The translations under genes and the position numbers were made by a program. This document shows, one piece after another, positions 25,001 to 42,296 of a stretch of DNA of 64,000 nucleotides; the stretch's first letter is position 1, and each line of letters opens with the position of its first letter. The notes under the pieces were generated by a model that saw only the letters and a list, made by a program, of their open reading frames with translations, was not told the origin of the DNA and made no database searches. The DNA comes from Candidatus Poribacteria bacterium. GTDB taxonomy: Bacteria > Poribacteria > WGA-4E > WGA-3G. The stretch is taken from the NCBI GenBank assembly GCA_963663765.2, contig CAXXUA010000003.1, forward strand, positions 192,001 to 256,000, in the 5' to 3' direction.

Positions 25001-26780
25001 AGCTGAAGATGATGATGACACGGAAGAAAACGTAACAGCCGATACAGAGAGTATTCTTGGCTTGTTTAGTGCTCAGACCTCGCCAGAACGGATGTTACGA
25101 TGGCATTACCGTAGCAGACATCCTTCGTTGATTGCAGTATCAAACTTTTGCTTTTACGATAATAAACTTATAATCTTTCCAAGTCCTGATGCCGCAAGAG
25201 AAAAAGTCGGATTGGTGTATCATTACCTACCTGATACTGCTTATGACCGTGGAGGGAGTAGAAGCAACTTGAAAGAGGCAAAAATAGTTGCAAAAAAAGT
25301 CATGGAACACGCACGCTTACGACCCCATTTGACACTTGGTGTCGCGACTTTTAGTACAGCACAAATGCAAGCAATTCAAGATCAGCTTGAACTACTGCGC
25401 AGAGAAGATCTATCATGTGAGGAAACATTCTTCAATGCTCATCCTGAAGAACCATTTTTTGTTAAAAATTTAGAAAACGTTCAAGGGGATGAACGTGATA
25501 TTATTTTTATTAGCATTGGATACGGGCGAGATGCTAATGGAAAACTTACGATGAACTTCGGACCTCTCGGTAGAGATGGTGGAGAAAGACGATTGAACGT
25601 TTTGATTACGCGAGCACGGCAGCGTTGTGAAGTGTTTACTAATCTTACTGCTGATGATATTGACCTAAGTCGTACCAATGCCCGCGGTGTTGCAGTCTTA
25701 AAACGTTATCTGAAATATGCGCAGACAGACGAAATTGACATCCCAGAACTGATCGGCAAACTACCAGACTCTCCGTTTGAGGTAGAGGTTGCAGATGCAT
25801 TGCGGGGATGTGGCTATGAAATTGATCATCAGATTGGTTCTGCTGGTTATTTCATCGACCTTGCGGTTAAGGATCCTGAACGCCCAGGACGTTACTTATT
25901 AGGGATTGAGTGTGACGGAGCAACCTATCACAGTGCTCAATCTGCTCGCGATAGAGATCGAATTAGGCAGGAAGTACTTGAAGGATTGGGTTGGCGTATC
26001 CATCGTATTTGGAGTACCGATTGGTTTAGGTTTCCAGACCGTGAACTCAAAAAAGCAGCTGAAGCGATTGAAGCAGCTAAGGCACACATACCCTTCTCTA
26101 TTGGTAAAACTCCAGAAGTTAATAATCATGATTCCAATGAAGATAAGGAAGAATCAGAAACAGAGGTTGAGGCAATTGATGATCCAACCCCAGAACCGAA
26201 ACCCAATTCCCAAACAAAAAAGTATCAACTTGCAGAACTATCTATTTCTACCAATGGGCTTGATTTACATGCAGTTCCGTCACGCCTGATAGCAAACTGG
26301 ATTCAGCAAGTTGTTGAAATTGAGAGTCCAGTACACCTTAACGAAGTAGCAAAACGCATCACAAGTGCTGCCGGACTGAAGAAGGTTGGCAATCGCATCC
26401 AAAAAGCGGTTGAAAATGCTGCGAGGACAGCAACTCGTTCTGAAGGTATTCAGATCAAAGAGACATCTCTATATGAGACATTTCTCTATTGGACTGGACA
26501 AAAAGAGATCACTGTGCGAGATCGTAGTGAACTTCCAAATACTTCACGCAAGTTTAAACTTATTGCACCTGAAGAAATACAAGAGGCAATCAAGTTGTGT
26601 GTATCGGAATCTTGCGGCATTGAACAAGACGATTTACCTCACGCAACTTGTAGGTTATTTGGTTTTAAAAAGGTTAATTGGAACATGCAAGACGAAATTG
26701 AAGGCATAATTTATAAAATGATTGAAAGCGGTGAGTTAACGGATAAAGCTGGCTCGTTGGTACTTACTACAGTAAAATAG
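22041..26780 (+). CDS. DUF4011-SF1 helicase-Vsr-like nuclease-DUF3320 protein (Hhe-like anti-phage architecture)
   Basis: N-terminal LLDLTLRNPLIN, Walker A QGPPGTGKS, FDEASQ, VGDTQQLPP, ENVQGDERD, RLNVLITRAR, GIECDGATYH...GWRIHRIWS, C-terminal VVEIESPVH. Confidence 0.85.
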   Translation: MNSVQTKLDKARAELLDLTLRNPLINYKLLKARGIEIVDESPSDIYQILVQNKKTMSFLPRDEDDSSFLFEDEAEHDPERYTDTKLQTNHFSPELQKRLRNTEYTERTAIEEQGVTTLYLALGMLEWYESESSEILRSAPLIMIPVVLNRTSVRANFRVQYTDEDIGTNLSLQEKLKAEFSIQLPDLPDVDDLNQSTILRYFEEVSEVIVNQKQWSVNDLKIALGFFSFAKFLMYCDLDVNNWPDNTLSKHPILDSVLVNGFQEPDSSIEDSEPNLDLHLTPENTHHVVNADSSQALAIHDVSEGRNLVIQGPPGTGKSQTITNLIAASIMEGKRVLFVAEKMAALEVVKRNLDKIGLGNACLELHSHKMNKKAVVDELRRILDTSEPKITDLKQKLENLLDDRNRLNRYCEAVNTPIGESGITPYQAYGELLATQRLLSGRELPTLASKDFQHSTSEFEKGLALTEVCQTLLKRMGIPKKHPFWGSRCKVFLPADRVSLKQASAEARERVTEVKNSSEQLAQHLKLVPPDTCDEVENLIRAARHVIDAPDLSGVAVQSTEWETHSSDFEVGFKAGEKLDELHKIHDDMLIREAWGQNVLEMRQKLAAHGDKWWRILSGNYRQALNELKGLCSQPQLLPKTHHSRLRIVDAILEVQSESPQLEQIQEIGQELFGSHWQGQSSNWDQLREIIKYMSATHQSVANKELPEAVVTYLASNPNLEELKESLATVEKLFSNYPHLLQSVIDKIQLDEKVRFGCDDGLKQLPFTEQIKIFRCWETKPGCLQDMVSYNHHVEALTDNGFIEIVKVANEWSEAGEYLSDLLKQTWHNVKIETVMTERPILAGFSSETHQHILERFKELDRISLDYNKVKVAYQHWKHLPQYEASSGQLGLLRREFQKKRRHLPIRQLMTKAGNAIQAIKPVFMMSPLSVATFIPPKSVDFDLVVFDEASQVKPVDAFGSIVRGKQTVVVGDTQQLPPTSFFDKHIAEDDDDTEENVTADTESILGLFSAQTSPERMLRWHYRSRHPSLIAVSNFCFYDNKLIIFPSPDAAREKVGLVYHYLPDTAYDRGGSRSNLKEAKIVAKKVMEHARLRPHLTLGVATFSTAQMQAIQDQLELLRREDLSCEETFFNAHPEEPFFVKNLENVQGDERDIIFISIGYGRDANGKLTMNFGPLGRDGGERRLNVLITRARQRCEVFTNLTADDIDLSRTNARGVAVLKRYLKYAQTDEIDIPELIGKLPDSPFEVEVADALRGCGYEIDHQIGSAGYFIDLAVKDPERPGRYLLGIECDGATYHSAQSARDRDRIRQEVLEGLGWRIHRIWSTDWFRFPDRELKKAAEAIEAAKAHIPFSIGKTPEVNNHDSNEDKEESETEVEAIDDPTPEPKPNSQTKKYQLAELSISTNGLDLHAVPSRLIANWIQQVVEIESPVHLNEVAKRITSAAGLKKVGNRIQKAVENAARTATRSEGIQIKETSLYETFLYWTGQKEITVRDRSELPNTSRKFKLIAPEEIQEAIKLCVSESCGIEQDDLPHATCRLFGFKKVNWNMQDEIEGIIYKMIESGELTDKAGSLVLTTVK

Positions 26781-26958: not shown

Positions 26959-29454
26959 ATGCAAGACTATCAACCAATCTCTCTCACAGAATTCTGTAAT
27001 GTCAACGCAGACATTATCGGACACAACGCCAATCCAACCTTAGGACCACAAACATTCCACGGACTCCCTTTCCACATCTCCCAAGGTGAAAAATGTTTTT
27101 TGGGATTTGGTGATGGAATCAATACAGAACCCATCCAAATACCAGTGAGTTCTGATCCGAAACGGATTATCGTAGCACATCGACTGCTTGAGTCCCGCAT
27201 CCATGAAGGTGAACCGATTGGAAAATTGATTGCAAACTATGTGGTCCAATATACCGATGGAATGTCAATGCGTGTTCCAATCCGTGAACGTTTTGAGATT
27301 GGAAGCGTGCCACAAGGTTGGGGACAACAGACTTTCATTGCTATACCCGATACAAAGGAAAGTTTGCATGCTCGCCATCAAGGGCCGTGGGGTTCCGCAG
27401 GAAATCGACAGACCGAAGCGATGCAATGTGTGCCACGCAACTACTACCTTTATATATGGAAGAAACCCAATCCTGATAAAGAAATTGCCTATATAGAAAT
27501 ACGACCACAAGAACGGAAGTTTATTGTCGCAGCAATCACGTTAGGATACATTGACGAGGATCCGATTCCGCGTCGTGCTAACCGTGAGGTAAAAATCACA
27601 CTCCCACAAGCAGAAGATGCTGACAAACCTTTTGACATGGAGGTTAACGTTGACCGTGGTACTGCGACCTATCCGTATCCGTTGCCAGAAAACTCAACCG
27701 ATGCGTTTATCAATGACGATTTTAAAGGATGGGGAGAATTCCAAAACAACAAAAGCAGTCCTGCATATACAGAGATATCCGCTACACCATCCGCAACCGT
27801 TGAAGTCAAAAATCAGGGTGAAACACTGGGTTCAGTCAACTGGGGAGAACTTCAAAAAAATGGTTCTGTTCAACCGAATGAACGGGTCAAGGTTGAAGTT
27901 ATTGATTCTGGCAGAAACTGGGTGCATACCACCGTGATTGACGAAGACACGAATAAACCTGTACCGTGCCGTATCCACTTCCGATCACCACACGGTGTGC
28001 CTTATGCACCACACGGACATCACGCACATGTCAACTCAAACATGGGCACATGGCACGTAGACATCGGGGGTGATGTGCGGTTAGGACAGATTAGTTATGC
28101 CTATATTGATGGCACTTGTCAAGGATGGTTACCGCGCGGAGACGTAATTGTTGATGTTGCTCGCGGCTTTGAATATACGCCATTGCGAACCACTGTGAAT
28201 ATAAAACCAGGTCAACGCGAATTGACACTACGAATAAAACGTTGGTGTGACATGAACTCCGAACGCTATTTTAGCGGAGATACCCATGTCCATTTCCTTT
28301 CAACACAAGGTGCACATACCGAAGCACAAGGTGAAGACCTCGGTGTTGTCAATCTACTCCTCTCCCAGTGGGGACATCTCTTTACGAATACAGAGGAGTT
28401 TATCGGAAGACCCACAGTGTCATCCGATGGACGTAGCATTGTCTATGCAACGCAGGAAAATAGACAGCATGTGCTTGGTCATCTCACGTTACTTGGCTTG
28501 AAAGAACAGGTGTCTCCGTGGTGTTCAGATGGACCAGGTGAAGCAGAACTCGGAGGAAACTTGGAAGTCACGCTGTCGCATTGGGCAGATGCGTGCCATG
28601 AACAAGGTGGCACTGTCGTCTTACCTCATATTCCAAATCCGAATTGCGAACCTGCAACCCTCATTGCAACTGGACGCGTTGATGCAGTTGAATATCTTAC
28701 CCACGCCATGTATGGACACATTGAATATTATCGTTATCTCAACTGTGGATATAAGCTGCCACTCGTCGGGGGTACAGACAAAATGACAGCAGATGTTCCT
28801 GTAGGTGTTTATCGCACTTATGTTCACATCCCCGATAACGAAGAATTCAACTATGATAACTGGTGCAAATATATGAGTGCGGGGAATACATTCCTCAGTG
28901 GAGGTCCGATGATTCGTCTCACCGTTGATGGACAACCCATCGGCAGCACGATCAACCTGCCCGGCAATGGCGGTACCGTTGAAGTTGAAGCATCCGCGGA
29001 TTCTATCTTCCCCATACATACCTTGCAGATTGTGCAAGCAGGACAAGTTGTCGCTACCACAGAGGAAAACAGTGGATCACATCAGTTACGTCTCAAAGCG
29101 AATCTGAAAGTGGATAAACATTCATGGATTGCGGCAAGGTGTGGTGGTCCGAACTATGCTCAAGCAGTTCCACATCACGATGGATGGCGGCGCGGTATCA
29201 TTGCACATACATCACCAGTTTACATCGCAGTCGGTGGTGAATGGTGGATGTTCGATCCCGAAACTGCAAACTATATGCTCACCTTGATTGAAGGCGGGTT
29301 GTCCTATATACAACAGTCGGCACGTCACTATGAACCCGGAACGACAACACATCATCACGGTGAAGATGACCATATAGAATATCTCTCTCGTCCATTCCAA
29401 GAGGCGCGAAAGGCAATCCACCAACGAATGCATCAATTGGGTATTCCACATTAA
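26959..29454 (+). CDS. CehA/McbA-family (PHP-like) metallohydrolase
   Basis: SGDTHVH, LGHLTLLG, VLPH, YLNCGYKLPLVGGTD, AHTSPVY. Confidence 0.75.
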   Translation: MQDYQPISLTEFCNVNADIIGHNANPTLGPQTFHGLPFHISQGEKCFLGFGDGINTEPIQIPVSSDPKRIIVAHRLLESRIHEGEPIGKLIANYVVQYTDGMSMRVPIRERFEIGSVPQGWGQQTFIAIPDTKESLHARHQGPWGSAGNRQTEAMQCVPRNYYLYIWKKPNPDKEIAYIEIRPQERKFIVAAITLGYIDEDPIPRRANREVKITLPQAEDADKPFDMEVNVDRGTATYPYPLPENSTDAFINDDFKGWGEFQNNKSSPAYTEISATPSATVEVKNQGETLGSVNWGELQKNGSVQPNERVKVEVIDSGRNWVHTTVIDEDTNKPVPCRIHFRSPHGVPYAPHGHHAHVNSNMGTWHVDIGGDVRLGQISYAYIDGTCQGWLPRGDVIVDVARGFEYTPLRTTVNIKPGQRELTLRIKRWCDMNSERYFSGDTHVHFLSTQGAHTEAQGEDLGVVNLLLSQWGHLFTNTEEFIGRPTVSSDGRSIVYATQENRQHVLGHLTLLGLKEQVSPWCSDGPGEAELGGNLEVTLSHWADACHEQGGTVVLPHIPNPNCEPATLIATGRVDAVEYLTHAMYGHIEYYRYLNCGYKLPLVGGTDKMTADVPVGVYRTYVHIPDNEEFNYDNWCKYMSAGNTFLSGGPMIRLTVDGQPIGSTINLPGNGGTVEVEASADSIFPIHTLQIVQAGQVVATTEENSGSHQLRLKANLKVDKHSWIAARCGGPNYAQAVPHHDGWRRGIIAHTSPVYIAVGGEWWMFDPETANYMLTLIEGGLSYIQQSARHYEPGTTTHHHGEDDHIEYLSRPFQEARKAIHQRMHQLGIPH

Positions 29455-31252: not shown

Positions 31253-31376
31253 AATAGTTTATATGTGCATTACACAAAATAAATATTTAATTTGAAAATA
31301 TAATTGGAAATATGGTATATTTACGGTAAGTCTTACTTTTCGTACTAAACTTTAAAGTGTCAAGAATAGAATAGTT

Positions 31377-34300
31377 ATGCGTATACAATTAATTCAACAA
31401 AAGGTTCCAATTGGAAGCCAAGTCACATTTACAATGAAAACTGGCGAGAAAATGTCAGGTTCGTTAACGGAACTTGGTAAAGATTATGTTGCATTAGATG
31501 TCCTAAATGGCCAAGCAATTTTGGATGTTAAAGAGATAGAGGGTATTCATCTAGGCATTTATGTTGATGAATCAGATAGTTCAGTTTCTTCTGTAATTTC
31601 ACTCACAACATCTGAGGATCCTGAAGATATTCCGTTACCAACTGAGGCTAATCCGAAACTTGGTGATAACCAAATTCTGTCAACACCTGATGGAATCGAA
31701 CCAGTCGTTGAACAGGAATCTCCCGATGTTGCTGCTGTATCAACTGAAGTTTTTAATTCTTCAGAGGACTCTTCGATCTCTGTTGAAGAACCTGAAAATT
31801 CAGATTCTATTGGTATACAAACTGACTTTGTTGATCCTGAAGAACAACTTGATGAAATTGAAAAACGGTTTAAGAACGAAATTGAATCTGCTAATATTGA
31901 ATTGCAACCTCCAGATTTTACTTTTCCAGCAGATGAATTGAAAGGTTGGCAAAATACAAGTATTGCTGGCAAATGGTTACAAATCAAGAATACGTTTAAG
32001 AACGCTGAAAGAATCAATGAATTAAGTACCAAATTTGGCAGAATCCAACCACTTCTTAGTGAACTCACCTCTTTAGTTAGACGTTTTCCGAATTCTCCAT
32101 CACTTAAACGTGTTACTGCATATTTTAACGCAGTATCAGATGATTGGCAAGAGGCAATTCAAATATATAAAGAAGTGGCGATTACTTCAAAAGATTTCAT
32201 TGACTGGTTTAATGTAGCGGTATCAGCGTTGAATTTGAATGAAGAAGAGTTCGCTTGTTATAGTTTAGAGAGATTCTTCAATGGTGTTTCTGTAATTGAT
32301 AAGCCGAATGCATGGTATATTTATGTCAATCTCGTAGAGAAATTCAACAATCTTTCTGCATTCCGTGATCTGTGTAAAATAGACGAAAACGATGTTGCTG
32401 AAAATGAAATTGAGATTTTATTGGACACGGCTATATATCTCTTTAAGAGGAAGGTTACCACAGAATTAGCAATAGAAATTGTACAAAAACGAATCAAAGG
32501 TGAACCCGCTGTATCTTTGTTAAAAGAAGTCTCTGCAAAACTTGGTGGTCAGTCCGTTGAATCTTTCCGTCAATTCTTGGAAGAATTCATGAACGAGAGG
32601 ATTGCTTCAGAAGAAAAAGACAACTCTATACATCTGGGATATTCTGAACCCTTTGGAAATACTAAAGCACCTACTCGCGATGTAACACTACAAAAACCTT
32701 ATTCACGACCAACAGTTAAACTTACAGGGGAAGAACTTTATAGAAAAGCACAGAGAGCCGATAAAATAGACAAAAACCTTGCGAAAGCAGAAAAACTTTT
32801 CCGAGAATGTATTCGTCAAAATATTCGGTATGACAGTGCAATTAAGGATTTAGCGATGGTGCTCGTGCGATTAGATCGTTCGTTGGAAGCCGTGGAACTT
32901 CTTGAAAAATATCGGCCAGATGTAGAAGATAAACAGTCTTTAGATAATACTCTCATAATGGTATATCCAACTGCGGATCAGTATGAGAAAGCAATTGATC
33001 TTCTTAACAATTCTCTTAAACTAACTTCAGAGAGAGAAAAAAGGGCGCATATACACTCGCAAATATCCAGTAATTACATTAAATTAGGAAATTATTCAAA
33101 TGCAGAAAAACAATTCCGAGAGGTGCTAAAGTTACGGCCTAACAATATCACCGTGCAACGGAACCTTGCACTTTGTCTCTCAAAACAAGACCGTTATACA
33201 GAAGCAGAAGAAATCTTAAACCGAATTCAAAATATCTCTCCTAATGCTAAAACTGCTGAATTATTGGAAGCAATTGAAAAGGCAAAAGCAACTGGAGAAT
33301 TTATTCTTGATGATGACAGTTTTATTCCGACACCTTCAGATTTTTCTGGTGAATTAAGCGAATTTGCACATTTCTTTCTGAAACGTTGTGAGTTTGAAGG
33401 TCTGGAATCCAACATAATTGCCCAAAGAGTGCAAGATGGAAAATATACGGGGTCGGAAAAAGACGTAAAACGCGATATTGATAGACTTAGAGTAGTCTCC
33501 AGCAAACTGGGTCCTAGTAGTCCACGAGAACGTAGTAACTATAATCTATCTGCAGCCAGAATCTATTTTGATATAAGAGATAATAGGGATTCTTTTTATC
33601 AAGACCTTTGCCGTAGTTTTGCTTCAAGAGGCGATGCTGCAGTGATTGAAAATAGGGATTTAGATGCTGCGAGGGGGTGGTATTGTGAAGCACTGACCGT
33701 TTACGATGGAGCCAGAATTCATCATGGAAATGATGAAATAGGTTCTCTTGTAAAAGATGCAGATGGCTCACTTGTCAGGTATCTCTATTCAATATTGGGG
33801 GCTGAACGTATACCACGACCACCTAAGATTCCATCTGTCAGTACAGCGGTATCAGATGTTATTTGTACTGAGAGTGAAAAAGTTTTCGATGCAATAGTTT
33901 ATTTAGTTTCACACAGTGGATATGCTTCTGAAAAAATTTTACGTTGTCTTTACGAAAACACATCCTTACGAAGTATAGCTCTAAAATATTTAGAAAAAAA
34001 AGTGTTAGATCATCATCTTCCTGTTAAAGGTCAGAGTGATTTCATTCAATTGTGGAACGATTTACGACACAATCAATTTGGCAAAGCACACAGTATTTCA
34101 AACGGTTTAAGGGTTTTACAGACTTTTGAAATCTCGGTAGCTTGGTTGGAAGATAACATTAAACACATAGAAAATATTCGCACTAACCTTTTCTTTGAAT
34201 TAGACAAACAGAGAATTGCAGAATTACGGAGAATATTTTATACTGCATTAGAACTTTGCCAACAGAAAGTGTTTGGAGAACAGGAGTATCGTTGTAAGTT

Positions 34301-36011
34301 ACTCGATCGTTTCTGTGAAGATCTACTCGGACAAATTGAAATGAATCCAACAAAGTTTTCAGTAGAAGATGTTTATCCACTTATTGATGTTATTCACCAG
34401 AAAGTTAAAGAACATCTAGAAGGACTCTACGAAACTTTGAAACCTCAATTGACATTAAGGTTAGCAGAAGGAAAGGAATCTTGTGTGCCAGTTGATAGGA
34501 GAATTGAGGTGCAAATTGTTGTGGAGAATGAAGAAGGACGAATGCCTGCTGATGCATTAAAATTAGTAGCTCAGGCGGATGAATCATTTTTTGAAGTAAC
34601 AGTGCCAGATGTTGAATTAGCAGAATCATTGCGCGGAGGTAAAGACGCTCAGACAATTCTAAAGGTTCCTTTGCGTTTAACAGATGCAGCTTTGCAATCA
34701 GAAGCATTCTCTCTACCTATTTACGCTGAGTACGGTATCCGTGGAGGAAAACGAGATAAAACTCCAGTTCAAAATCTCTCTGTCAGACTTAATTCAGAAG
34801 ATGCGTTTGAGAAAATTGCAAACCCTTATGCGCGTTTTGCTGAAGGAGGCGTTGTTGGGGATGCGGAGATGTTCTTTGGACGTGATGAGTTAATTCAAAA
34901 TATTTCAAAGTCCATTAAAGAATCTCATTTTCAAAGTAAGTCAGTTGTTGTATTTGGACAAAAACGATCTGGAAAATCCTCAGTTTTGTATCACCTAAAG
35001 AAATCACTTCAAGAAGATAAAAATTTGCTTATTCTTGATTTAGAAAACATTGCTGCAATTCTGGGAGAGAATTCTAATGTCTCACTCTTAACCCTGATTT
35101 TCAAGAACATTTTATCAGAATTGCAAGATGCTATCGAAGATCACATAGATAAAGGTTTTACACCTTTAGAAATTGCTATTCCTTCTGATATGGACTTCTA
35201 TTCACATCCTAACCCTCAGCAGTGTTTTGGAAGTATATTTAGGAGTTTCAGACGTGAGATTTCTAAACAGGAAGATTGGCGTGATGTCCGGGTTGTCCTA
35301 CTGATTGATGAATTTCAGTATATTTATTCTCGAATTGTTGATGGTAAGATTCCCGAATCGTTCATGCAAAGTTGGAAGGCTTTTTTGCAAGCAAACTATT
35401 TCCATACAGTTTTAGTAGGTCAGGATGTAATGCCAAAGTTTAAAGCACGTTTTCCTAACGAGTTTGGTACAACTCAAGATGAGCGGGTTACTTATCTGAA
35501 ACCAGACGATGCACGAAGACTTATTGACGAACCCATACGCATTGGTGGCAGACAGGGTGACAGTCGCTATCGTGAACAAGCAATTGAACGGATTTTGGAT
35601 CTCACTGCTGGCAGCCCGTTCTACATTCAAATTATTTGCAACCGTCTTGTTGAATACATGAACGTTAAACACGCTGGACTTGTAACAGAGGCAGACGTTG
35701 ACCAGGTTAAGAATGAATTGATACGCGATGTAAATGCGTTAGGTTTAGACAAATTTGATAATCTCATCAATTCAGGAGATACCTCACCAGATGCTATAAC
35801 AGATGAAGATGTCATAAAAGTCCTTAAGATAATTGCTGACAATAGTAGTAAAACAGATCCTTGTCCTCGTGATAAAATTGTTTGCCAAACAGGTTCACCA
35901 ATTGATACTATTCTGGATGATCTTGAGAAGCGAGATGTTGTTAAACGCCGCGATCAATCTTATCAAATTCAGGTGGGACTTTTCAGAGAGTGGCTGATTG
36001 AGAACGGTTAA
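31377..36011 (+). CDS. Large Sm-like/TPR/Ig-like/STAND-type P-loop NTPase protein
   Basis: TPR-like helices (e.g. YIKLGNYSNAEKQFREVLKLRPNN), NPY...FFGRDE, Walker A GQKRSGKSS, Walker B LLIDEFQ, TAGSPFYIQ, C-terminal wHTH-like LDDLEKRDVV...LFREWL. Confidence 0.75.
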   Translation: MRIQLIQQKVPIGSQVTFTMKTGEKMSGSLTELGKDYVALDVLNGQAILDVKEIEGIHLGIYVDESDSSVSSVISLTTSEDPEDIPLPTEANPKLGDNQILSTPDGIEPVVEQESPDVAAVSTEVFNSSEDSSISVEEPENSDSIGIQTDFVDPEEQLDEIEKRFKNEIESANIELQPPDFTFPADELKGWQNTSIAGKWLQIKNTFKNAERINELSTKFGRIQPLLSELTSLVRRFPNSPSLKRVTAYFNAVSDDWQEAIQIYKEVAITSKDFIDWFNVAVSALNLNEEEFACYSLERFFNGVSVIDKPNAWYIYVNLVEKFNNLSAFRDLCKIDENDVAENEIEILLDTAIYLFKRKVTTELAIEIVQKRIKGEPAVSLLKEVSAKLGGQSVESFRQFLEEFMNERIASEEKDNSIHLGYSEPFGNTKAPTRDVTLQKPYSRPTVKLTGEELYRKAQRADKIDKNLAKAEKLFRECIRQNIRYDSAIKDLAMVLVRLDRSLEAVELLEKYRPDVEDKQSLDNTLIMVYPTADQYEKAIDLLNNSLKLTSEREKRAHIHSQISSNYIKLGNYSNAEKQFREVLKLRPNNITVQRNLALCLSKQDRYTEAEEILNRIQNISPNAKTAELLEAIEKAKATGEFILDDDSFIPTPSDFSGELSEFAHFFLKRCEFEGLESNIIAQRVQDGKYTGSEKDVKRDIDRLRVVSSKLGPSSPRERSNYNLSAARIYFDIRDNRDSFYQDLCRSFASRGDAAVIENRDLDAARGWYCEALTVYDGARIHHGNDEIGSLVKDADGSLVRYLYSILGAERIPRPPKIPSVSTAVSDVICTESEKVFDAIVYLVSHSGYASEKILRCLYENTSLRSIALKYLEKKVLDHHLPVKGQSDFIQLWNDLRHNQFGKAHSISNGLRVLQTFEISVAWLEDNIKHIENIRTNLFFELDKQRIAELRRIFYTALELCQQKVFGEQEYRCKLLDRFCEDLLGQIEMNPTKFSVEDVYPLIDVIHQKVKEHLEGLYETLKPQLTLRLAEGKESCVPVDRRIEVQIVVENEEGRMPADALKLVAQADESFFEVTVPDVELAESLRGGKDAQTILKVPLRLTDAALQSEAFSLPIYAEYGIRGGKRDKTPVQNLSVRLNSEDAFEKIANPYARFAEGGVVGDAEMFFGRDELIQNISKSIKESHFQSKSVVVFGQKRSGKSSVLYHLKKSLQEDKNLLILDLENIAAILGENSNVSLLTLIFKNILSELQDAIEDHIDKGFTPLEIAIPSDMDFYSHPNPQQCFGSIFRSFRREISKQEDWRDVRVVLLIDEFQYIYSRIVDGKIPESFMQSWKAFLQANYFHTVLVGQDVMPKFKARFPNEFGTTQDERVTYLKPDDARRLIDEPIRIGGRQGDSRYREQAIERILDLTAGSPFYIQIICNRLVEYMNVKHAGLVTEADVDQVKNELIRDVNALGLDKFDNLINSGDTSPDAITDEDVIKVLKIIADNSSKTDPCPRDKIVCQTGSPIDTILDDLEKRDVVKRRDQSYQIQVGLFREWLIENG

Positions 36012-36021
36012 TGGAGAAGAT

Positions 36022-37527
36022 ATGAATTTTGAAAATCCTTTTGTAAATTATGGCAAAATTGTTCGTGGTGAACGTTTCATTGGACGTCATAAAATTCATA
36101 GTGTGATTGAAAACCGAATTATTTATCCTGTTAACCCTGGAAATTTAGCCATCATTGGTGTGCATCGCATTGGCAAAAGTAGTCTTGCTTACAAAACAAT
36201 CATTGAACAAAAAGAGAAACTAATTGCTAAGGGAATCCTGCCTATTTGGATTGGACTATCTTCCTACGATCAGTCATCAGAGTTTTTCAGTTCGCTGGTA
36301 GTTGAATGTGTCAATGAAATGGAAGATTTAGATTGGCTAACTGAGAAAATTCAACGTTTAGCTGATCGTGCATTAGAAGATGGTGCTACGTGGGACCGAA
36401 CAAGACGTTTTTTTAAAGAAGTGCAAAAAGCTGGATATGGTACACTTTTCATTCTGGATGAATTTGATCATGCTCGTTATATCTTCAAGGGTGAGACAGC
36501 ATTCCAACGTTTGCGAGAATTAGCCGATTATCCAGATTACCGTTTGTCGCTTGTGCTCACGTCCCGTCGTAGCATTAAGGATATTGAAACCGCGGCTGGT
36601 TCTTCATCTCCGTTTCATAACATTTTCCAAGTACAACGTTTAGCCATGTTCAATGATGATGACTTAGCAATCTACTTTTCCCGATTTTCAGATATGGGAA
36701 TATCTATATCTGATGAACAAAGACAACGGGTGTTGTTCTATTGTGGAGTTCACCCCTACTTGTTGGAAATGTTAGGTTGGGAAATCGTTGAGAGGTATCG
36801 TCAAAATCAAGAACAAGATGTTGATATCGATTTAGCAGCAGATACTATCCTACAGTCTATCTTTGGTCATTATGACGATATGATTCGGTTGCTGCGGGAG
36901 GAAGAAACCTTAAATAAACTTCTCCAGATTTTATTTGGTCCTGCCATTGATGTTACACCAACAGATGTAACAGAACTTGAAAACTACGGTTTGATTAAGT
37001 CAGTTAATGAATGTCCTTATATTGCATACTCAGAACACTTTCACGATTACCTAAAACTACATGAAAGTGCAACAGAATTTGTTGATGATTTACATTCTAT
37101 CTGGAGCAAAACTGAGAATGTGCTCCGCGAGGTAATCACAACAACCATGTTTGGTGTATTTGGAGATGATTGGATTGAAGAATTCGAGAAAACACGCCCT
37201 AATCTGAAACAGATTTTCGATAAATGTCGTCAAGCACAACAGAAGGAAGAAAAGTCATTTCCAGATCAAGCATCACAAAATCTAATTGATTATACCTATC
37301 CAGCAGATCTGTTTAGGATAATTCTTGGTAAAGGAATATGGGATCAGCATTTTCAAACAATCTTTGGTCAATATACGGGTTACTGGGACGAACGGGGTAA
37401 GTTTCTTGCGAAATGTAGAACTCCTTTGGATCACAACCGGGATAAAATACTTAAACCTCACCAACGAAAAATATTTGAAGCGTATTGTGATGAAATTCTG
37501 GGAGTGCTGTCTAATAGCATCCAGTGA
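36022..37527 (+). CDS. STAND-type ATPase with C-terminal Swt1-like HEPN domain
   Basis: NPF...FIGR, Walker A GVHRIGKSS, Walker B ILDEFD, GVHPYLL. C-terminal ENVLREVI...IDYTY...RTPLDH (Rx4H). GGAG RBS upstream. Confidence 0.75.
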   Translation: MNFENPFVNYGKIVRGERFIGRHKIHSVIENRIIYPVNPGNLAIIGVHRIGKSSLAYKTIIEQKEKLIAKGILPIWIGLSSYDQSSEFFSSLVVECVNEMEDLDWLTEKIQRLADRALEDGATWDRTRRFFKEVQKAGYGTLFILDEFDHARYIFKGETAFQRLRELADYPDYRLSLVLTSRRSIKDIETAAGSSSPFHNIFQVQRLAMFNDDDLAIYFSRFSDMGISISDEQRQRVLFYCGVHPYLLEMLGWEIVERYRQNQEQDVDIDLAADTILQSIFGHYDDMIRLLREEETLNKLLQILFGPAIDVTPTDVTELENYGLIKSVNECPYIAYSEHFHDYLKLHESATEFVDDLHSIWSKTENVLREVITTTMFGVFGDDWIEEFEKTRPNLKQIFDKCRQAQQKEEKSFPDQASQNLIDYTYPADLFRIILGKGIWDQHFQTIFGQYTGYWDERGKFLAKCRTPLDHNRDKILKPHQRKIFEAYCDEILGVLSNSIQ

Positions 37528-37584
37528 ACTCATCTGAAGCATCATTACACAAAAGTACTTTCATTTAAGACAGAAATGTAACGT

Positions 37585-39113: not shown

Positions 39114-39713
39114 TTAATTTCCTTGTACTGCTTTGAAAACAGAATTCATTGCACCAAACAAGATAGGTAAATTTGCTAAAGTAAAGTTGGTTCGATTTCG
39201 TGTAAAGACATCACCAACAAGATTTCCAAATTGCCACATAATTCCATCGGTGACAATGCCATGCACAGGAAAATTTGTATTGTCATTTATTTTCTGTGCT
39301 GCGACTAACTCTGCCAAACACTGTCCCCATCCAAGTTCAAAGTCGTTCTTTTTCGCTTCAACCATCATTATCAATGGTGTTCCGACAACAGTGATACCCA
39401 ATTCAGACTTTGTGGCAATAAGATAATCTGGTGTTCCATTCAAAGTTTCATCATAAGTGATGGATTTCTTTACCCAAAGTCCGTAGTTTTCTGCATAATC
39501 TTTGTAGATCTCTCTTAAAATAGGAAATATGACCACTTCACATCTTGATCCTTCTGATGTAAAAAAATCAATGTGTTGTTGACTAAATTCAAGTTCTTTC
39601 AAAAAATGTTCTGAAGGAACTTTCGCCTCAGCTTTGAAAAAATCATTGTACGTGTATTTGATATTGAACTTTTCCTGAACTTCAGAAATTGTCTTGAAAT
39701 CACTAAATGCCAT
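39114..39713 (-). CDS. PD-(D/E)xK nuclease-like protein (HsdR N-terminal-like), paralog A
   Basis: GTPDY...VEAKK...GQCLAEL...GIVTDG..W.F. GGAGG RBS upstream. Confidence 0.6.
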   Translation of the reverse strand: MAFSDFKTISEVQEKFNIKYTYNDFFKAEAKVPSEHFLKELEFSQQHIDFFTSEGSRCEVVIFPILREIYKDYAENYGLWVKKSITYDETLNGTPDYLIATKSELGITVVGTPLIMMVEAKKNDFELGWGQCLAELVAAQKINDNTNFPVHGIVTDGIMWQFGNLVGDVFTRNRTNFTLANLPILFGAMNSVFKAVQGN

Positions 39714-39743
39714 GAGGACTACCTCCACACTTCCAATATGAAT

Positions 39744-40056: not shown

Positions 40057-40250
40057 CTGACATACTCCCCAAGCTAAAGCATGGGGGTTCTTAGTTCTTA
40101 TATTGGAAACGGTTTGAGTTGTTTCCAAACGACTTTTCCTGCTTCCGTGTCTCGTGCCCTTTCCTGAACAGCGTTGGGTCTTATTTGCACTCCACAGGCG
40201 TGACTTTCGGTGTGTCCCACCGTAGTTGGTTTCAAGTTTATTGCAGCATT
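40057..40250 (-). ncRNA. Predicted TnpB omega/reRNA scaffold (5' boundary approximate)
   Basis: Inferred from the known TnpB architecture, in which the RNA overlaps the tnpB 3' end and the right-end hairpin. Confidence 0.45.
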
Positions 40251-41294
40251 GACATCTCTATCTATAGACATATCACATTGACTGCAGTGATACATTCTTT
40301 CTGAAAGTGTTAGGTCTTTCTTTTTGTGTCCACAACCGGAACAGGTTTTACTACTTGCAAAGAACATATCTGCTTCTTTGACAGGTATACCGTGCACTTC
40401 TGCTTTTGTCTTGAGTTTTAGCAGGAAACTGCCTAATGCTGTATCTGACAATGCTTTTGCGAGGTTTCTGTTCTTCAGCATATTAGTAACCTTGAGTGTC
40501 TCAATACCGATCGCAGATGCGAGGTTGACAATCTCTGTAGTTGCTTTATGATGTGCATCGTTTCGGATACAAGCGATACGATAGTAGATACGTTCTAACT
40601 TGTGTTTTTGTTTGAACCAGTTGTTAGACTTGAAAACTTTTCTACTTAATCTACGTTGTTCTCTTGCTAACTTCTTTTCATATCGTTTCAGGGGTCTTGG
40701 ATTATCATATTTCGTGCCATCACTCAATGTGGCAAGTGTGTTTATGCCTACATCTATACCAATCACAGGGTGCGTTGAGTTATCAACTGCTTCGGTGTCC
40801 TCTGTTTCTATGGTGATAGATACAAACCAACGATGTGCTGTCCTTGAGATCGTCACTTTCATAATCTTACCCACAAAACGCAATGATTCAAACATGCTAA
40901 TCCAACCAATCTTAGGAAGTTTGATACGCTTACCTTCAACTTCTACAGATTGATTATTTGTGGTGAATGCGTCCTTTTTGCCACGCTTCTTGAACTTCGG
41001 AAATCTCGCACGCTTACCAACCCAACTCGCAAGCGCAGCAGACAAGTTACCAAATATGCTTTTATTGGCTACAACCTGATCCATATCTTTAGTCCAAGCA
41101 TGTGCTTTCTTAGCAATATTAAATCGAGTGTTTAACTTCGCAGCGGATAAGAACTCATCATTTGCCAATGCAGACTTGAAATCTGCTAATGCATGATTAT
41201 ATGCAAATCTCGCATAGCCACACTGTTGTGCAAACCATTTTCGTTGATTGTTATTTGGATTCAATGCAATCTTATGTGTTTTTAGCATGATCAT
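40098..41294 (-). CDS. tnpB: RNA-guided endonuclease TnpB
   Basis: HTH (CGYARFAYN), FPKFKKRG, RuvC residues in GIDVG, IETL and DRDVNAAIN, zinc finger CSGC...CSQC. Appears intact. Confidence 0.93.
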   Translation of the reverse strand: MIMLKTHKIALNPNNNQRKWFAQQCGYARFAYNHALADFKSALANDEFLSAAKLNTRFNIAKKAHAWTKDMDQVVANKSIFGNLSAALASWVGKRARFPKFKKRGKKDAFTTNNQSVEVEGKRIKLPKIGWISMFESLRFVGKIMKVTISRTAHRWFVSITIETEDTEAVDNSTHPVIGIDVGINTLATLSDGTKYDNPRPLKRYEKKLAREQRRLSRKVFKSNNWFKQKHKLERIYYRIACIRNDAHHKATTEIVNLASAIGIETLKVTNMLKNRNLAKALSDTALGSFLLKLKTKAEVHGIPVKEADMFFASSKTCSGCGHKKKDLTLSERMYHCSQCDMSIDRDVNAAINLKPTTVGHTESHACGVQIRPNAVQERARDTEAGKVVWKQLKPFPI

Positions 41295-41581: not shown

Positions 41582-42181
41582 TTAATTTCCTTGTACTGCT
41601 TTGAAAACAGAATTCATTGCACCAAAAAGTATCGGAAGATTATCTACAGTATAATTCGTCATGTTTTGTATAAAAGTATCACCTACGAGCCTGCCAAATT
41701 CCCACATTTTTCCATCGGTTACAATACCGTAGACAGGAAATTCTGGATCGTCATTGATTTTTTGTGCTGCAACCATCTCTGCTAAGCATTGTCCCCATCC
41801 TTGTTCAAAATCGTTCTTTTTTGCTTCAACGAACATAATCAAAGGTGTTCCGACAACAGTTATTCCCAATTCAGATCGTGTAGCAATAAGATAGTCTGGT
41901 GTGCCGCTCAATGTTTCATCATATATAATAGATTTCTTTACCCAAAGTCCGTATTTTTCAGCATAATCCTTATATACCTCTTTTAAAATTGGAAATATAA
42001 CTACTTCAGATCTTGCACCTTCGGATGCAAAAACATCAATATATTTTCTGCTGAATTTAAGATCTTGTATAAATGTATCTGATGGTTTCTTTGCCTCAAC
42101 TTCGAAAAAGTCATTTGACGTATATCTGATGCTAAATTTTTCTTGAACTTCAGAAATAGTCTTGAAATCAATAAATGCCAT
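41582..42181 (-). CDS. PD-(D/E)xK nuclease-like protein, paralog B
   Basis: Clearly paralogous to 39114-39713, with identical C-terminus LFGAMNSVFKAVQGN. Confidence 0.6.
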   Translation of the reverse strand: MAFIDFKTISEVQEKFSIRYTSNDFFEVEAKKPSDTFIQDLKFSRKYIDVFASEGARSEVVIFPILKEVYKDYAEKYGLWVKKSIIYDETLSGTPDYLIATRSELGITVVGTPLIMFVEAKKNDFEQGWGQCLAEMVAAQKINDDPEFPVYGIVTDGKMWEFGRLVGDTFIQNMTNYTVDNLPILFGAMNSVFKAVQGN

Positions 42182-42208
42182 GAGGACTACCTCCACAATT
42201 TCAATTAA

Positions 42209-42296
42209 TACCAAATTAACATAAGTTGTATTGTTTGAGTGCCGAGAACATGGACGGGTACAGAGACCCGTCCCTACGATTTAGGTTAATTTGGTA
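42209..42296. mobile_element. 88-bp MITE containing a GTAG-type REP hairpin
   Basis: TACCAAATTAAC...GTTAATTTGGTA flanked by TAA. Internal GGACGGGT-acagag-ACCCGTCC-CTAC. Confidence 0.65.

What the first reader, a model, noticed from the sequence alone, without database searches (positions are those of the whole stretch)
31377..37527. Candidate undescribed two-gene immune module: Sm-like-TPR-Ig-STAND sensor paired with a STAND-Swt1/HEPN RNase effector
Seen: two co-oriented, AT-rich genes 10 bp apart, inserted between unrelated metabolic genes. Gene 1 (1544 aa) has a small N-terminal beta domain, an acidic disordered linker, extensive TPR-like helices, a beta-sandwich-like region (IEVQIVVENEEG...ILKVPLRL...LPIYAEY), and a C-terminal NTPase (GQKRSGKSS, IDEFQ, GSPF) plus wHTH. 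Gene 2 (501 aa) has a related NTPase (GVHRIGKSS, LDEFD, GVHP) and a C-terminal Swt1-like HEPN with an intact Rx4H (RTPLDH, 37417-37434). Established: STAND NTPases (Avs/NLR-like) sense phage through TPRs and oligomerise to activate effectors, and HEPN RNases need dimerisation. Unusual here: sensor and effector are on separate NTPases, and the sensor NTPase is C-terminal to the TPRs, the reverse of Avs. Inference: a paired sensor/helper NLR-like system in which hetero-oligomerisation unleashes RNA cleavage (abortive infection). I cannot exclude that it is already catalogued.
Basis: partly seen in the sequence, partly recalled or inferred. Interest (0 to 1): 0.82.

Follow-up and report, generated by a model that had tools for sequence, protein, structure and literature searches.

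The report
Paired ATPase sensor and HEPN RNase
A sponge-symbiont bacterium carries a tightly linked gene pair, a giant repeat-rich ATPase and a smaller sister ATPase fused to an RNA-cutting domain, that travels between distant bacteria and looks like an untested antiviral "sensor plus executioner" system of a kind so far only predicted by computer.

Summary
Gene 1 (31377-36011, 1544 aa) and gene 2 (36022-37527, 501 aa) are real and 10 nt apart.

- **Gene 1:** Sm-like N-terminal barrel, disordered linker, TPR-type solenoid, beta-sandwich, C-terminal nSTAND1-type NTPase with winged helix.
- **Gene 2:** a paralogous NTPase with winged helix, fused to a Swt1-like HEPN domain whose Rx4H motif is invariant.
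- **Pairing:** 15 of 15 phylum genomes with a strong gene-2 match, and 47 of 48 assessable public loci, across Poribacteria, Latescibacterota, Chloroflexota, Cyanobacteria and others.
- **Accessory character:** found in 20 of 151 genomes of the phylum, and much more diverged than its core neighbours. The slot is empty in one same-genus genome and holds a restriction-modification gene in another.
- **Modularity:** relatives of gene 2 carry kinase, Schlafen or TIR domains in place of HEPN.
- **Binding:** a complex model supports NTPase-NTPase contact (0.63 against 0.01 for the best control).

I read it as an uncharacterised conflict or abortive-infection system working through a hetero-oligomeric NTPase switch. 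That function is inferred, not shown.

The novelty is partial. Kaur et al. 2021 predicted a two-STAND operon with a HEPN effector (nSTAND2). Anantharaman et al. 2013 listed STAND-TPR-S1 with Swt1-like HEPN. This pair is not nSTAND2, keeps both NTPases intact, and matches no PADLOC system. Earlier scan notes describe similar HEPN-STAND cassettes on other DNA.

The parts
31292..31321 (+). Promoter-like site (TTGAAA, 18 nt, TG-TATATT) in the 124-bp AT-rich gap upstream of gene 1
   Evidence: 10 of 12 matches. The number of such sites in the region (15) is not above the shuffles (18.6), so this is only a candidate.
31377..36011 (+). Gene 1: 1544-aa sensor/scaffold NTPase
31377..31556 (+). Gene 1 residues 1-60: small beta-barrel with Sm-like topology (helix 3-9, strands 15-20, 25-33, 37-42, 45-50, 54-59)
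   Evidence: pLDDT 77-90. No Pfam hit even at E 10. The Atlas gave only weak leads to Hfq and RimP_C. The domain is kept in the short forms of gene 1.
31557..31832 (+). Gene 1 residues 61-152: acidic, disordered linker
   Evidence: pLDDT about 30. Least conserved segment, majority fraction 0.29.
31833..32618 (+). Gene 1 residues 153-414: helical repeat region
32727..33296 (+). Gene 1 residues 451-640: tetratricopeptide repeats
   Evidence: TPR_19 E 5.4e-14 and others; designed TPR proteins in the PDB.
33360..34436 (+). Gene 1 residues 662-1020: second helical solenoid with no family assignment
   Evidence: (no Pfam hit). Foldseek on the whole 1-1160 model returned only generic TPR scaffolds.
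34449..34790 (+). Gene 1 residues 1025-1138: beta-rich (sandwich-like) domain just before the NTPase
   Evidence: eight strands, pLDDT 74-95. No Atlas lead.
34803..36008 (+). Gene 1 residues 1143-1544: nSTAND1-type P-loop NTPase, lid and winged helix. Walker A GQKRSGKSS is residues 1194-1202 (34956-34982), Walker B is D1311-E1312, and the GSPF motif is 1412-1415.
   Evidence: PF20703; invariant residues; homology to the gene 2 NTPase.
36013..36016 (+). GGAG ribosome-binding site, 5 nt before the ATG of gene 2
36022..37527 (+). Gene 2: 501-aa NTPase-HEPN effector
36022..37071 (+). Gene 2 residues 1-350: AAA+/STAND-type NTPase, lid and winged helix. Walker A GVHRIGKSS is residues 46-54 (36157-36183), Walker B is D146-E147. 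The LRELADYPDY helix and GVHP are invariant.
   Evidence: and 32 (Foldseek top hits 2qen, ORC/Cdc6, 2fna, NRC2/3, Avs3, Apaf-1).
37087..37524 (+). Gene 2 residues 356-501: all-helical Swt1-like HEPN domain
   Evidence: own domain against PF18731, E 0.013; 15.4 bits, below the 27.5 cut-off; 33 of 47 homologues hit PF18731, best E 7.2e-11; helical.
37417..37434 (+). Rx4H catalytic motif RTPLDH (R466...H471)
   Evidence: R466, P468 and H471 are invariant in 47 of 47 aligned homologues.

Best explanation
The two genes form one operon encoding an accessory, horizontally mobile conflict system, most likely antiviral abortive infection.

Gene 1 is the sensor or scaffold. It has an Sm-like barrel, a long TPR-type solenoid and a beta-sandwich, all placed in front of an active nSTAND1-type NTPase with a winged helix.

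Gene 2 is the effector. It has a paralogous active NTPase with a winged helix, fused to a Swt1-like HEPN RNase.

The two NTPase modules bind each other head to tail, as AAA+/STAND protomers do. I infer that recognition of an invader molecule by the variable N-terminal region of gene 1 drives nucleotide-dependent hetero-oligomerisation. That would bring HEPN domains together and switch on RNA cleavage, arresting the infected cell.

Shown here: the architecture, paralogy, pairing, mobility, effector modularity and a predicted interface. Inferred: the trigger, RNase activity, cell arrest and the immune role.
For: **Pairing**
- All 15 phylum genomes with a strong gene 2 match (E below 1e-100, own genome included) have gene 1 directly upstream on the same strand.
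- 47 of 48 public loci with enough upstream DNA also do.
- Divergence of the gene 1 NTPase and of gene 2 tracks across 43 loci (Spearman 0.83). Those loci are related, so this is descriptive only.

**Paralogy**
- hhalign aligns gene 2 residues 7-304 with gene 1 residues 1143-1481, probability 85.6%, E 5.6e-6.

**Catalytic residues**
- Walker A and B are invariant in both proteins, and Rx4H is invariant in gene 2.

**HEPN family**
- 33 of 47 homologues hit PF18731.

**Binding**
- Complex model ipSAE 0.63 in three runs, against 0.01 for the best of three controls.
- That mark was reached by 58 of 80 solved complexes and 2 of 110 mismatched pairs.
- The runs share at least 91% of contacts, and the partner's pLDDT is at least 81.
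- The interface joins the invariant 158-172 helix of gene 2 to the Walker A/B neighbourhood of gene 1.

**Accessory and mobile character**
- Gene 2 matches at E 0.001 or better in 20 of 151 genomes of the phylum, and in 5 of 37 other genomes of the genus.
- Poribacteria and Latescibacterota copies are 71% identical. Further copies occur in Chloroflexota, Cyanobacteria, Bacillota, Bacteroidota and others.
- In the same genus, gene 1 is about 60% identical while the adjacent oxidoreductase is 89-92% identical.
- One same-genus genome has the flanks adjacent without the pair. Another has an Eco57I-like R-M gene plus a transposase in the slot.

**Modularity**
- Among 30 relatives of the gene 2 NTPase with other C-termini, 5 carry Pkinase, 5 SLFN_AlbA_2, 3 CSD, 1 TIR and 1 EAD7.
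- The N-terminal region of gene 1 varies from none (about 520-aa short forms) to CSD-containing long forms.
Against: - There is no experimental evidence of any kind for this family. Five literature searches found none.
- There is no significant match to any PADLOC defence model. The best hits are PDC-M34B at E 2.3e-6 on part of the HEPN domain, and P-loop-only hits at about 2e-4.
- The window's own HEPN domain scores below Pfam's cut-off, 15-16 bits against 27.5.
- The immediate neighbours in this window are metabolic genes.
- Among 68 neighbour ORFs of 14 other loci, PADLOC hits were scattered, with no control set. Island enrichment is therefore not demonstrated.
- No relative was found on viral contigs.
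- The complex score may reflect likeness to solved AAA+ heteromers such as ORC and RFC, rather than a specific fit.
- The apparent gene decay in 4 of 15 genomes could be frameshift error in long-read assemblies.
Confidence: 0.62

Rival explanations
1. It is simply a member of the two-gene nSTAND2 counter-invader system already predicted by Kaur et al. 2021, and so already described.
For: The gross design is the same: a mobile two-gene operon in which both products are STAND NTPases, one is fused to a HEPN RNase, and a hetero-multimer is predicted (PMC8195603, passages read). An earlier scan note on an orphan ATPase-HEPN gene named the same comparison.
Against: - PF20702 (nSTAND2) finds nothing in the whole genome at E up to 1.
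- Gene 1 and its short forms hit nSTAND1 instead.
- Of 47 gene 2 homologues, 1 hits nSTAND1 and none hits nSTAND2.
- In the published system the effector-bearing NTPase has eroded NTP-binding motifs. Here Walker A and B are invariant.
- The paper's source data, which are supplements, could not be read.
Confidence: 0.08
2. It is a toxin-antitoxin-like or addiction module. Gene 1 acts mainly as a stoichiometric inhibitor of a toxic HEPN RNase, and the pair persists as a selfish element without a dedicated immune role.
For: The genes are tightly coupled, with a toxin-type domain in the second one. The distribution is patchy and mobile. Binding is predicted.
Against: - A 1544-aa multi-domain protein with an intact NTPase and a variable repeat region is far more than an antitoxin needs.
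- The predicted interface is NTPase to NTPase and does not cover the HEPN site.
- Swapping the effector for kinase, Schlafen or TIR fits STAND-type signalling better.
Confidence: 0.12
3. It is a cellular RNA-processing or stress-response regulator with no role in conflict with invaders.
For: The Sm-like barrel, and the cold-shock domains in relatives, suggest RNA binding. There is no defence-database hit, and the neighbours here are metabolic.
Against: - Found in only 20 of 151 genomes of the phylum and 5 of 37 other genomes of the genus.
- It crosses phyla.
- It has diverged far more than the adjacent core genes.
- The slot shows presence/absence and replacement by R-M.
- The effector domain is swapped in relatives.
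Confidence: 0.1

Closest known systems
Predicted two-gene nSTAND2 counter-invader system (Kaur, Iyer, Burroughs, Aravind 2021, eLife, PMC8195603, Fig. 6C; passages read)
   Same: A mobile two-gene operon. Both products have a STAND-type NTPase core. One is fused to a variable effector that is often a HEPN RNase. A hetero-multimer of the two NTPases is proposed.
   Different: The NTPase clade differs: Pfam gives nSTAND1, and nSTAND2 finds no match in the genome. Both NTPases keep invariant Walker A and B, whereas the published effector-bearing NTPase is eroded. Gene 1 also carries a large Sm-like, TPR and beta-sandwich region in front of its NTPase.
Swt1-like HEPN fusions 'STAND-ATPase, TPR, S1' listed by Anantharaman et al. 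2013 (PMC3710099, Table 1; passages read)
   Same: The same set of domain types: Swt1-like HEPN with an active motif, a STAND ATPase, TPRs and a small nucleic-acid-binding barrel. Relatives here carry a cold-shock domain.
   Different: The paper lists them as architectures without describing a split two-NTPase operon. Whether the named examples (Npun_F6454, MED222_16016, Desac_1927) are homologues of this pair could not be tested, because no sequences or supplements were available.
Avs / AVAST antiviral STAND NTPases
   Same: STAND-type switch, a repeat sensor and a nuclease-type effector. Avs3, NRC2/3 and Apaf-1 appear among the Foldseek hits of gene 2.
   Different: As I recall it, Avs is a single polypeptide with an N-terminal effector, a central NTPase and a C-terminal sensor. 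Here the sensor is N-terminal, the effector sits on a second NTPase, and no PADLOC Avs model matches.
Plant sensor/helper NLR pairs (for example the NRC network); analogy only
   Same: Division of labour between a sensing NTPase and an executing NTPase. NRC2 and NRC3 structures are among the fold hits of gene 2.
   Different: No specific homology beyond the shared STAND/AAA+ fold. Plant helpers form membrane-active resistosomes and are not RNases (recalled).
PADLOC candidate PDC-M34 (component B)
   Same: Gene 2 residues 358-450 match the PDC-M34B model weakly, at E 2.3e-6. This is a related Swt1-type HEPN module.
   Different: Only part of the HEPN domain matches. The NTPases and gene 1 have no counterpart, so this is not the same system.

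Membership tests
STAND / AAA+ NTPase, nSTAND1 clade (PF20703) | Match to the family model above its curated cut-off | tested here: met
   Gene 1 residues 1162-1404: E 4.1e-8, 33.7 bits against a cut-off of 27.1. Five short-form partners match at E 1.7e-9 to 5.2e-6. Gene 2 itself does not match; only 1 of its 47 homologues does.
STAND / AAA+ NTPase, nSTAND1 clade (PF20703) | Intact Walker A and Walker B | tested here: met
   Gene 1: G1194, Q1195, R1197, G1199, K1200, S1202, D1311 and E1312 are invariant in 47 sequences. Gene 2: G46, R49-S54 and D146-D149 are invariant in 47 sequences.
STAND / AAA+ NTPase, nSTAND1 clade (PF20703) | NTPase followed by a helical lid and winged helix, with a fold like ORC/Cdc6 or STAND | tested here: met
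   Gene 2 model, pLDDT 79.3. Foldseek top hits are 2qen, ORC4/5, 2fna and Cdc6, followed by NRC2/3, Avs3 and Apaf-1, at E 1e-7 to 2e-4. The gene 1 NTPase was not folded; it is linked by hhalign only.
HEPN superfamily, Swt1-like (PF18731) | Rx4-6H motif | tested here: met
   R466-T-P-L-D-H471. R466 and H471 are invariant in 47 of 47 sequences.
HEPN superfamily, Swt1-like (PF18731) | Match to the family model above its curated cut-off | tested here: inconclusive
   The window's copy scores 16.2 bits (E 0.013) as a domain alone and 15.4 bits in the genome search, against a cut-off of 27.5. 33 of 47 full-length homologues match at E 0.001 or better, best 7.2e-11.
HEPN superfamily, Swt1-like (PF18731) | All-alpha bundle with the motif just before the last helix | tested here: met
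   The model has helices at 356-391, 393-412, 427-462 and 479-500, with the motif loop at 466-472. A domain-only fold search was not possible.
Two-gene nSTAND2 system (Kaur et al. 2021) | Both NTPases belong to nSTAND2 (PF20702) | tested here: not met
   No PF20702 match anywhere in the genome at E up to 1. None of the 47 gene 2 homologues matches it.
Two-gene nSTAND2 system (Kaur et al. 2021) | The effector-bearing NTPase has eroded NTP-binding motifs | tested here: not met
   Walker A and B of gene 2 are invariant.
Two-gene nSTAND2 system (Kaur et al. 2021) | Conserved two-gene operon with a variable effector (HEPN or other) on one NTPase | tested here: met
   Pairing in 15 of 15 genomes and 47 of 48 loci. 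Effector swapping in relatives.
Avs / AVAST | Single polypeptide with N-terminal effector, central STAND and C-terminal sensor; match to Avs models | tested here: not met
   The domain order is reversed and split over two genes. No Avs model appears among the PADLOC hits at E up to 0.1. The definition of Avs is recalled.
Sm-like (LSm/Hfq) fold | N-terminal helix followed by five bent strands; family model match | tested here: inconclusive
   The predicted topology fits: H3-9 and five strands at 15-59, pLDDT 77-90. There is no Pfam hit at E up to 10. Atlas similarity is only 0.77-0.80, a range that shuffled proteins reach about a third of the time.
Known defence systems (PADLOC-DB v2.0.0) | Significant full-length match of either protein to a system component | tested here: not met
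   One search gave only partial, weak hits. DefenseFinder was not available.

The most novel reading that the evidence does not exclude
This is a bacterial counterpart of sensor/helper NLR pairs. Two active, paralogous STAND-type NTPases form an obligate heteromeric switch. A modular sensor subunit (Sm-like or cold-shock RNA-binding barrel plus TPR solenoid) detects an invader RNA or protein. It then licenses, through a trans-acting contact at its nucleotide site, a dedicated executioner subunit whose effector (HEPN, kinase, Schlafen or TIR) is interchangeable. The family is spread across at least ten phyla, with many hosts filamentous or living in dense consortia.
Probability: 0.35. Interest if true: 0.75.

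Novelty: new variant of a known kind. Interest (0 to 1): 0.55.

Why it matters
If the reading is right, this is a widespread and completely untested immune design. Sensing and killing are split between two sister ATPases that must assemble together.

That would make the logic of eukaryotic sensor/helper NLR pairs testable in a compact two-gene bacterial system. It would add an ATP-gated HEPN RNase to the list of abortive-infection effectors. It would also give a handle on antiviral defence in uncultured sponge symbionts.

The minimal short form, in which a barrel-plus-NTPase protein partners the NTPase-HEPN protein, offers a tractable construct for structural work.

Tried and rejected
- **Whole-region DNA search in the genus:** the machine gave no answer. 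I used a protein search instead.
- **PDB by sequence:** only TPR hits for gene 1 and nothing for gene 2 or its profile.
- **Foldseek of gene 1 residues 1-1160:** only generic TPR scaffolds such as Ctr9, Ski3, Integrator and TTC7B, with TM 0.15 or lower. This gives no identity for the 662-1020 region or the beta domain.
- **Protein Atlas:** the N-terminal barrel gave weak leads only, and the beta domain gave none.
- **Fused forms:** the 'longer' search found one 1225-aa Beggiatoa protein with another N-terminal domain and no gene 1-gene 2 fusion. The tool itself calls this weak evidence.
- **Viral contigs:** no relative found with two peptide patterns.
- **Expression:** no RNA holder was listed. 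Contig laying showed no joint that skips the module.
- **Defence-island test:** I took 68 neighbour ORFs from 14 loci, three on each side where present. Five of the 19 chosen loci were dropped because my ORF picker lost gene 2. PADLOC hits were scattered (NERD+UvrD, Orf5, PDC-S07, PDC-M38A, HEC-06, AbiLi, mad2/3, AriA), each in one or two members. The output does not give the number of distinct proteins, and there was no control set, so I draw no enrichment claim.
- **Target-site duplication idea:** the 12-mer CATTACACAAAA flanks the module at 31268 and 37543. Its four other copies lie inside a paralogous gene family. It is absent from all the other loci fetched, which include related occupied loci and empty sites, so it stays unexplained.
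- **L088:** the one locus without a recognisable gene 1 still has a 530-aa P-loop NTPase upstream, but similarity to gene 1 is marginal (E 0.005, probability 7%).

Full report
**1. The observation**

The ORF list shows 31377-36011 (+, 1544 aa) and 35998-37527 (+). The second gene most likely starts at the ATG at 36022, giving 501 aa. That ATG lies 10 nt after the TAA of gene 1 and 5 nt after a GGAG.

GC is 0.36-0.39 over the pair, against 0.46-0.48 in the genes immediately on either side. More distant parts of the window are equally AT-rich, so composition alone says little. The neighbours are a NUDIX gene, a GFO/IDH/MocA oxidoreductase, a sulfatase and a TnpB. Contigs of three public DNA runs from two studies bridge both junctions.

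**2. Anatomy of gene 1**

Pfam finds TPRs at about 450-640. It also finds the nSTAND1 NTPase (PF20703) at 1162-1404, above its cut-off, together with AAA_22 and AAA_16. Segments 1-68, 152-448 and 632-1168 have no significant family match even at E 10.

An AlphaFold2 model of residues 1-1160 was built from 103 sequences (pLDDT 80.1, pTM 0.56) and shows:
- a helix plus five strands in residues 3-59, which is the Sm-like topology;
- disordered stretches at 62-151 and 415-448;
- helical repeats at 154-414, 451-639 and 662-1020;
- an eight-strand beta domain at 1025-1138.

Foldseek returns only large TPR scaffolds at low TM. 'Sm-like' is supported by topology only, and 'Ig' is not established.

In 47 homologues the Walker A residues (G1194, Q1195, R1197, G1199, K1200, S1202), Walker B (D1311, E1312) and the S1413-P1414 motif are invariant. 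The linker and the 415-450 loop are the least conserved parts. The NTPase, lid and winged helix are the most conserved.

**3. Anatomy of gene 2**

Pfam sees only AAA_22 on the whole protein. The model (pLDDT 79.3) is an AAA+/STAND-type NTPase with lid and winged helix at 1-350, followed by an all-helical domain at 356-500. Its best fold matches are the archaeal ATPases 2qen and 2fna and ORC/Cdc6, followed by NRC2/3, Avs3 and Apaf-1.

The C-terminal domain alone matches HEPN_Swt1 weakly: E 0.013 and 16 bits, and 15.4 bits in a genome search, both below the 27.5 cut-off. However, 33 of 47 full-length homologues match it, with a best E of 7.2e-11.

In those 47 sequences the following are invariant:
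- the Walker A run R49-S54 and the DEFD box;
- R182-R183, and the LRELADYPDY helix (F161...P171);
- G242, H244 and P245;
- E365, L368 and R369;
- the HEPN motif residues R466, P468 and H471.

The HEPN reading is therefore well supported at family level.

**4. The two NTPases are paralogues and probably bind each other**

A profile-profile comparison aligns gene 2 residues 7-304 with gene 1 residues 1143-1481 (probability 85.6%, E 5.6e-6). The alignment includes a shared NPF/NPY...G..V...F.GR motif ahead of Walker A.

A complex model of gene 1 residues 1140-1544 with gene 2 scored ipSAE 0.63, 0.62 and 0.63, against 0.01 for the best of three controls. That mark was reached by 58 of 80 solved complexes and 2 of 110 mismatched pairs. 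The runs share at least 91% of contacts, and the partner's pLDDT is at least 81.

The interface brings the invariant 158-172 helix and residues 184-186 and 195-208 of gene 2 against the Walker A/B neighbourhood of gene 1 (1196-1205, 1223-1231, 1312). This is the head-to-tail geometry of AAA+ and STAND oligomers. Because ORC, RFC and NLR assemblies have been solved, the pass may partly reflect likeness to them. It supports binding but does not show it.

**5. Pairing, distribution and mobility**

Gene 2 has about 1465 relatives at E 0.001 or better in the representative library, 287 of them at 1e-30 or better.

In 151 genomes of the phylum it matches in 20, and in the own genus in 5 of 37 others. 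All 15 genomes with a strong match have gene 1 immediately upstream on the same strand.

In one-genome-per-species contigs, 52 loci were found:
- 14 titled Poribacteria;
- 6 Latescibacterota, up to 71% identical;
- 16 Chloroflexota;
- 3 Cyanobacteria;
- single Bacillota, Bacteroidota, Spirochaeta, Syntrophaceae, Parabeggiatoa, Vulcanimicrobiota and Nitrososphaerota-labelled MAGs, one record titled only 'Bacterium UASB270', and 5 unnamed records.

Of the 48 loci with enough upstream DNA, 47 have the gene 1 NTPase directly upstream. The exception has another P-loop NTPase in that position.

The N-terminal region of gene 1 is modular:
- Short forms of about 500-560 aa keep only the barrel and the NTPase (L043, L048, L049, L073).
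- Other forms lack the first helical and TPR part, or have an unrelated long N-terminus (L080, L082, L090).
- Some long forms carry a cold-shock domain just before the TPRs.

One genome (G107) has two diverged copies about 8 kb apart.

Gene 2 appears broken in 4 of the 15 genomes (G026, G027, G044, G081). Three of these are assemblies of one or two contigs. If they are long-read assemblies, as I assume, frameshift errors are a possible alternative to real decay.

**6. The slot**

The upstream oxidoreductase is a core gene, present in 39 of 40 genomes of the genus at 87-94% identity. In the four same-genus genomes that carry the pair at this site, the oxidoreductase is 89-92% identical, while gene 1 is about 60% and gene 2 is 68-86% identical.

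I fetched the site from twelve same-genus genomes without the pair:
- Six share another, apparently ancestral arrangement leading to pheT.
- One (G035) has the oxidoreductase followed directly by the genes that lie downstream of the pair in this window, which is an empty site.
- One (G069) has an Eco57I-like restriction-modification gene and a DDE transposase between the same flanks.
- One (G036) has Fic and another Eco57I-like gene.

The site is therefore a variable slot that holds defence-type cargo in other genomes.

**7. Effector swapping**

Thirty relatives match only the NTPase part of gene 2 and have extra length. At E 0.001 or better, 5 carry protein kinase domains, 5 Schlafen/AlbA_2, 3 cold-shock domains, 3 HEPN_Swt1, 1 TIR and 1 EAD7. 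Five hit nSTAND1 and one hits nSTAND2.

**8. Mechanism**

Shown:
- two active-looking paralogous NTPases in a conserved operon;
- a variable repeat and barrel region on one of them;
- an intact HEPN motif on the other;
- a predicted NTPase-NTPase interface.

Inferred: the N-terminal region of gene 1 recognises an invader protein (through the TPR solenoid) or RNA (through the Sm-like or cold-shock barrels). Nucleotide-dependent hetero-oligomerisation follows. HEPN domains are brought together, since HEPN RNases act as dimers (established knowledge), and RNA cleavage arrests the cell.

Rival readings are membership of the published nSTAND2 system, a toxin-antitoxin-like selfish module, and a housekeeping RNA regulator. 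Each is given in its own section with evidence for and against.

**9. Comparison with what is known**

Kaur et al. 2021 (PMC8195603; passages read) predicted a mobile two-gene operon in which both products are nSTAND2 NTPases. One of them has eroded motifs and is fused to GT4 or HEPN, and the authors proposed a toroidal hetero-multimer.

Anantharaman et al. 2013 (PMC3710099; passages read) listed Swt1-like HEPN with 'STAND-ATPase, TPR, S1'.

The present pair shares that design but fails two defining features of the nSTAND2 system: PF20702 gives no match, and the gene 2 motifs are intact. It also matches no PADLOC system, and NCBIfam gives nothing beyond weak P-loop and TPR hits.

The 2026 survey of STAND receptors (PMC13581612; passages read) showed no two-gene or paired STAND system in the passages I searched.

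Five literature searches found no experimental work on such a pair. The supplementary tables of the two Aravind-group papers could not be read and may list members.

Earlier notes of this scan describe other HEPN-plus-STAND cassettes on other DNA, and one 'orphaned ATPase-HEPN' gene whose family 'normally works as a pair with a giant sensor-like partner'. No look-alike was found by sequence.

**10. Verdict**

This is a real, conserved, mobile two-gene module and very probably a conflict system. It is a distinct variant of a kind already predicted in silico, it is untested, and it is a good candidate for experiment.

Noticed in passing
window 22041-26780 (+): A 1579-aa protein with DUF4011, SF1 helicase domains (AAA_11, AAA_12, AAA_30), the REase_MTES_1575 nuclease and DUF3320. 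This helicase-nuclease giant is of a type listed among conflict-system proteins by Anantharaman et al. 2013. It lies only 4.6 kb upstream of gene 1. No match to it was found in the three same-genus loci that include the NUDIX/oxidoreductase flank; those loci cover only 3-8 kb beyond that flank.
   Followed up: partly
window 26959-29454 (+): An 831-aa ORF with no family match apart from a marginal PD40 repeat. It sits between the helicase-nuclease and the core NUDIX gene. No match to it was found in the same-genus loci examined.
   Followed up: no
window 31268-31279 and 37543-37554: An exact 12-base direct repeat (CATTACACAAAA) brackets the two-gene module in its two intergenic regions. The window has 6 copies against 0.03 expected, but the other four lie inside a repeated coding sequence. 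The motif is absent from all the other loci fetched, which include related occupied loci and empty sites. It could be a target duplication or chance; this is unresolved.
   Followed up: partly
window 2897-3048, 6931-7082, 8966-9117, 13090-13241: Four copies of a conserved stretch, about 80-90% alike over 150 bases. This indicates a family of paralogous genes repeated in the first 14 kb of the window.
   Followed up: no
window 39114-39728 (-) and 41582-42214 (-), with TnpB at 40098-41294 (-): Two paralogous genes of about 205 aa with no Pfam match flank an IS605-type TnpB. In the empty-site genome G035 the two copies instead flank the sulfatase. This suggests rearrangement around the slot.
   Followed up: partly
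L030 (G107:C1:2098000-2117900): A second, diverged copy of the system lies about 8 kb from the first: a gene 2-like ORF at 42-44% identity, gene 1-like pieces, and an extra 411-aa NTPase-only ORF 66% identical to the gene 1 NTPase. This looks like a small cluster of paralogous systems.
   Followed up: partly
L016 (G098), L017 (G061), L018 (G136): HEPN-domain-only matches to gene 2: 60-63% identity in ORFs of 212 and 130 aa, and 37% identity at the end of a 737-aa ORF. The HEPN module therefore also occurs detached or on other proteins in the phylum.
   Followed up: no
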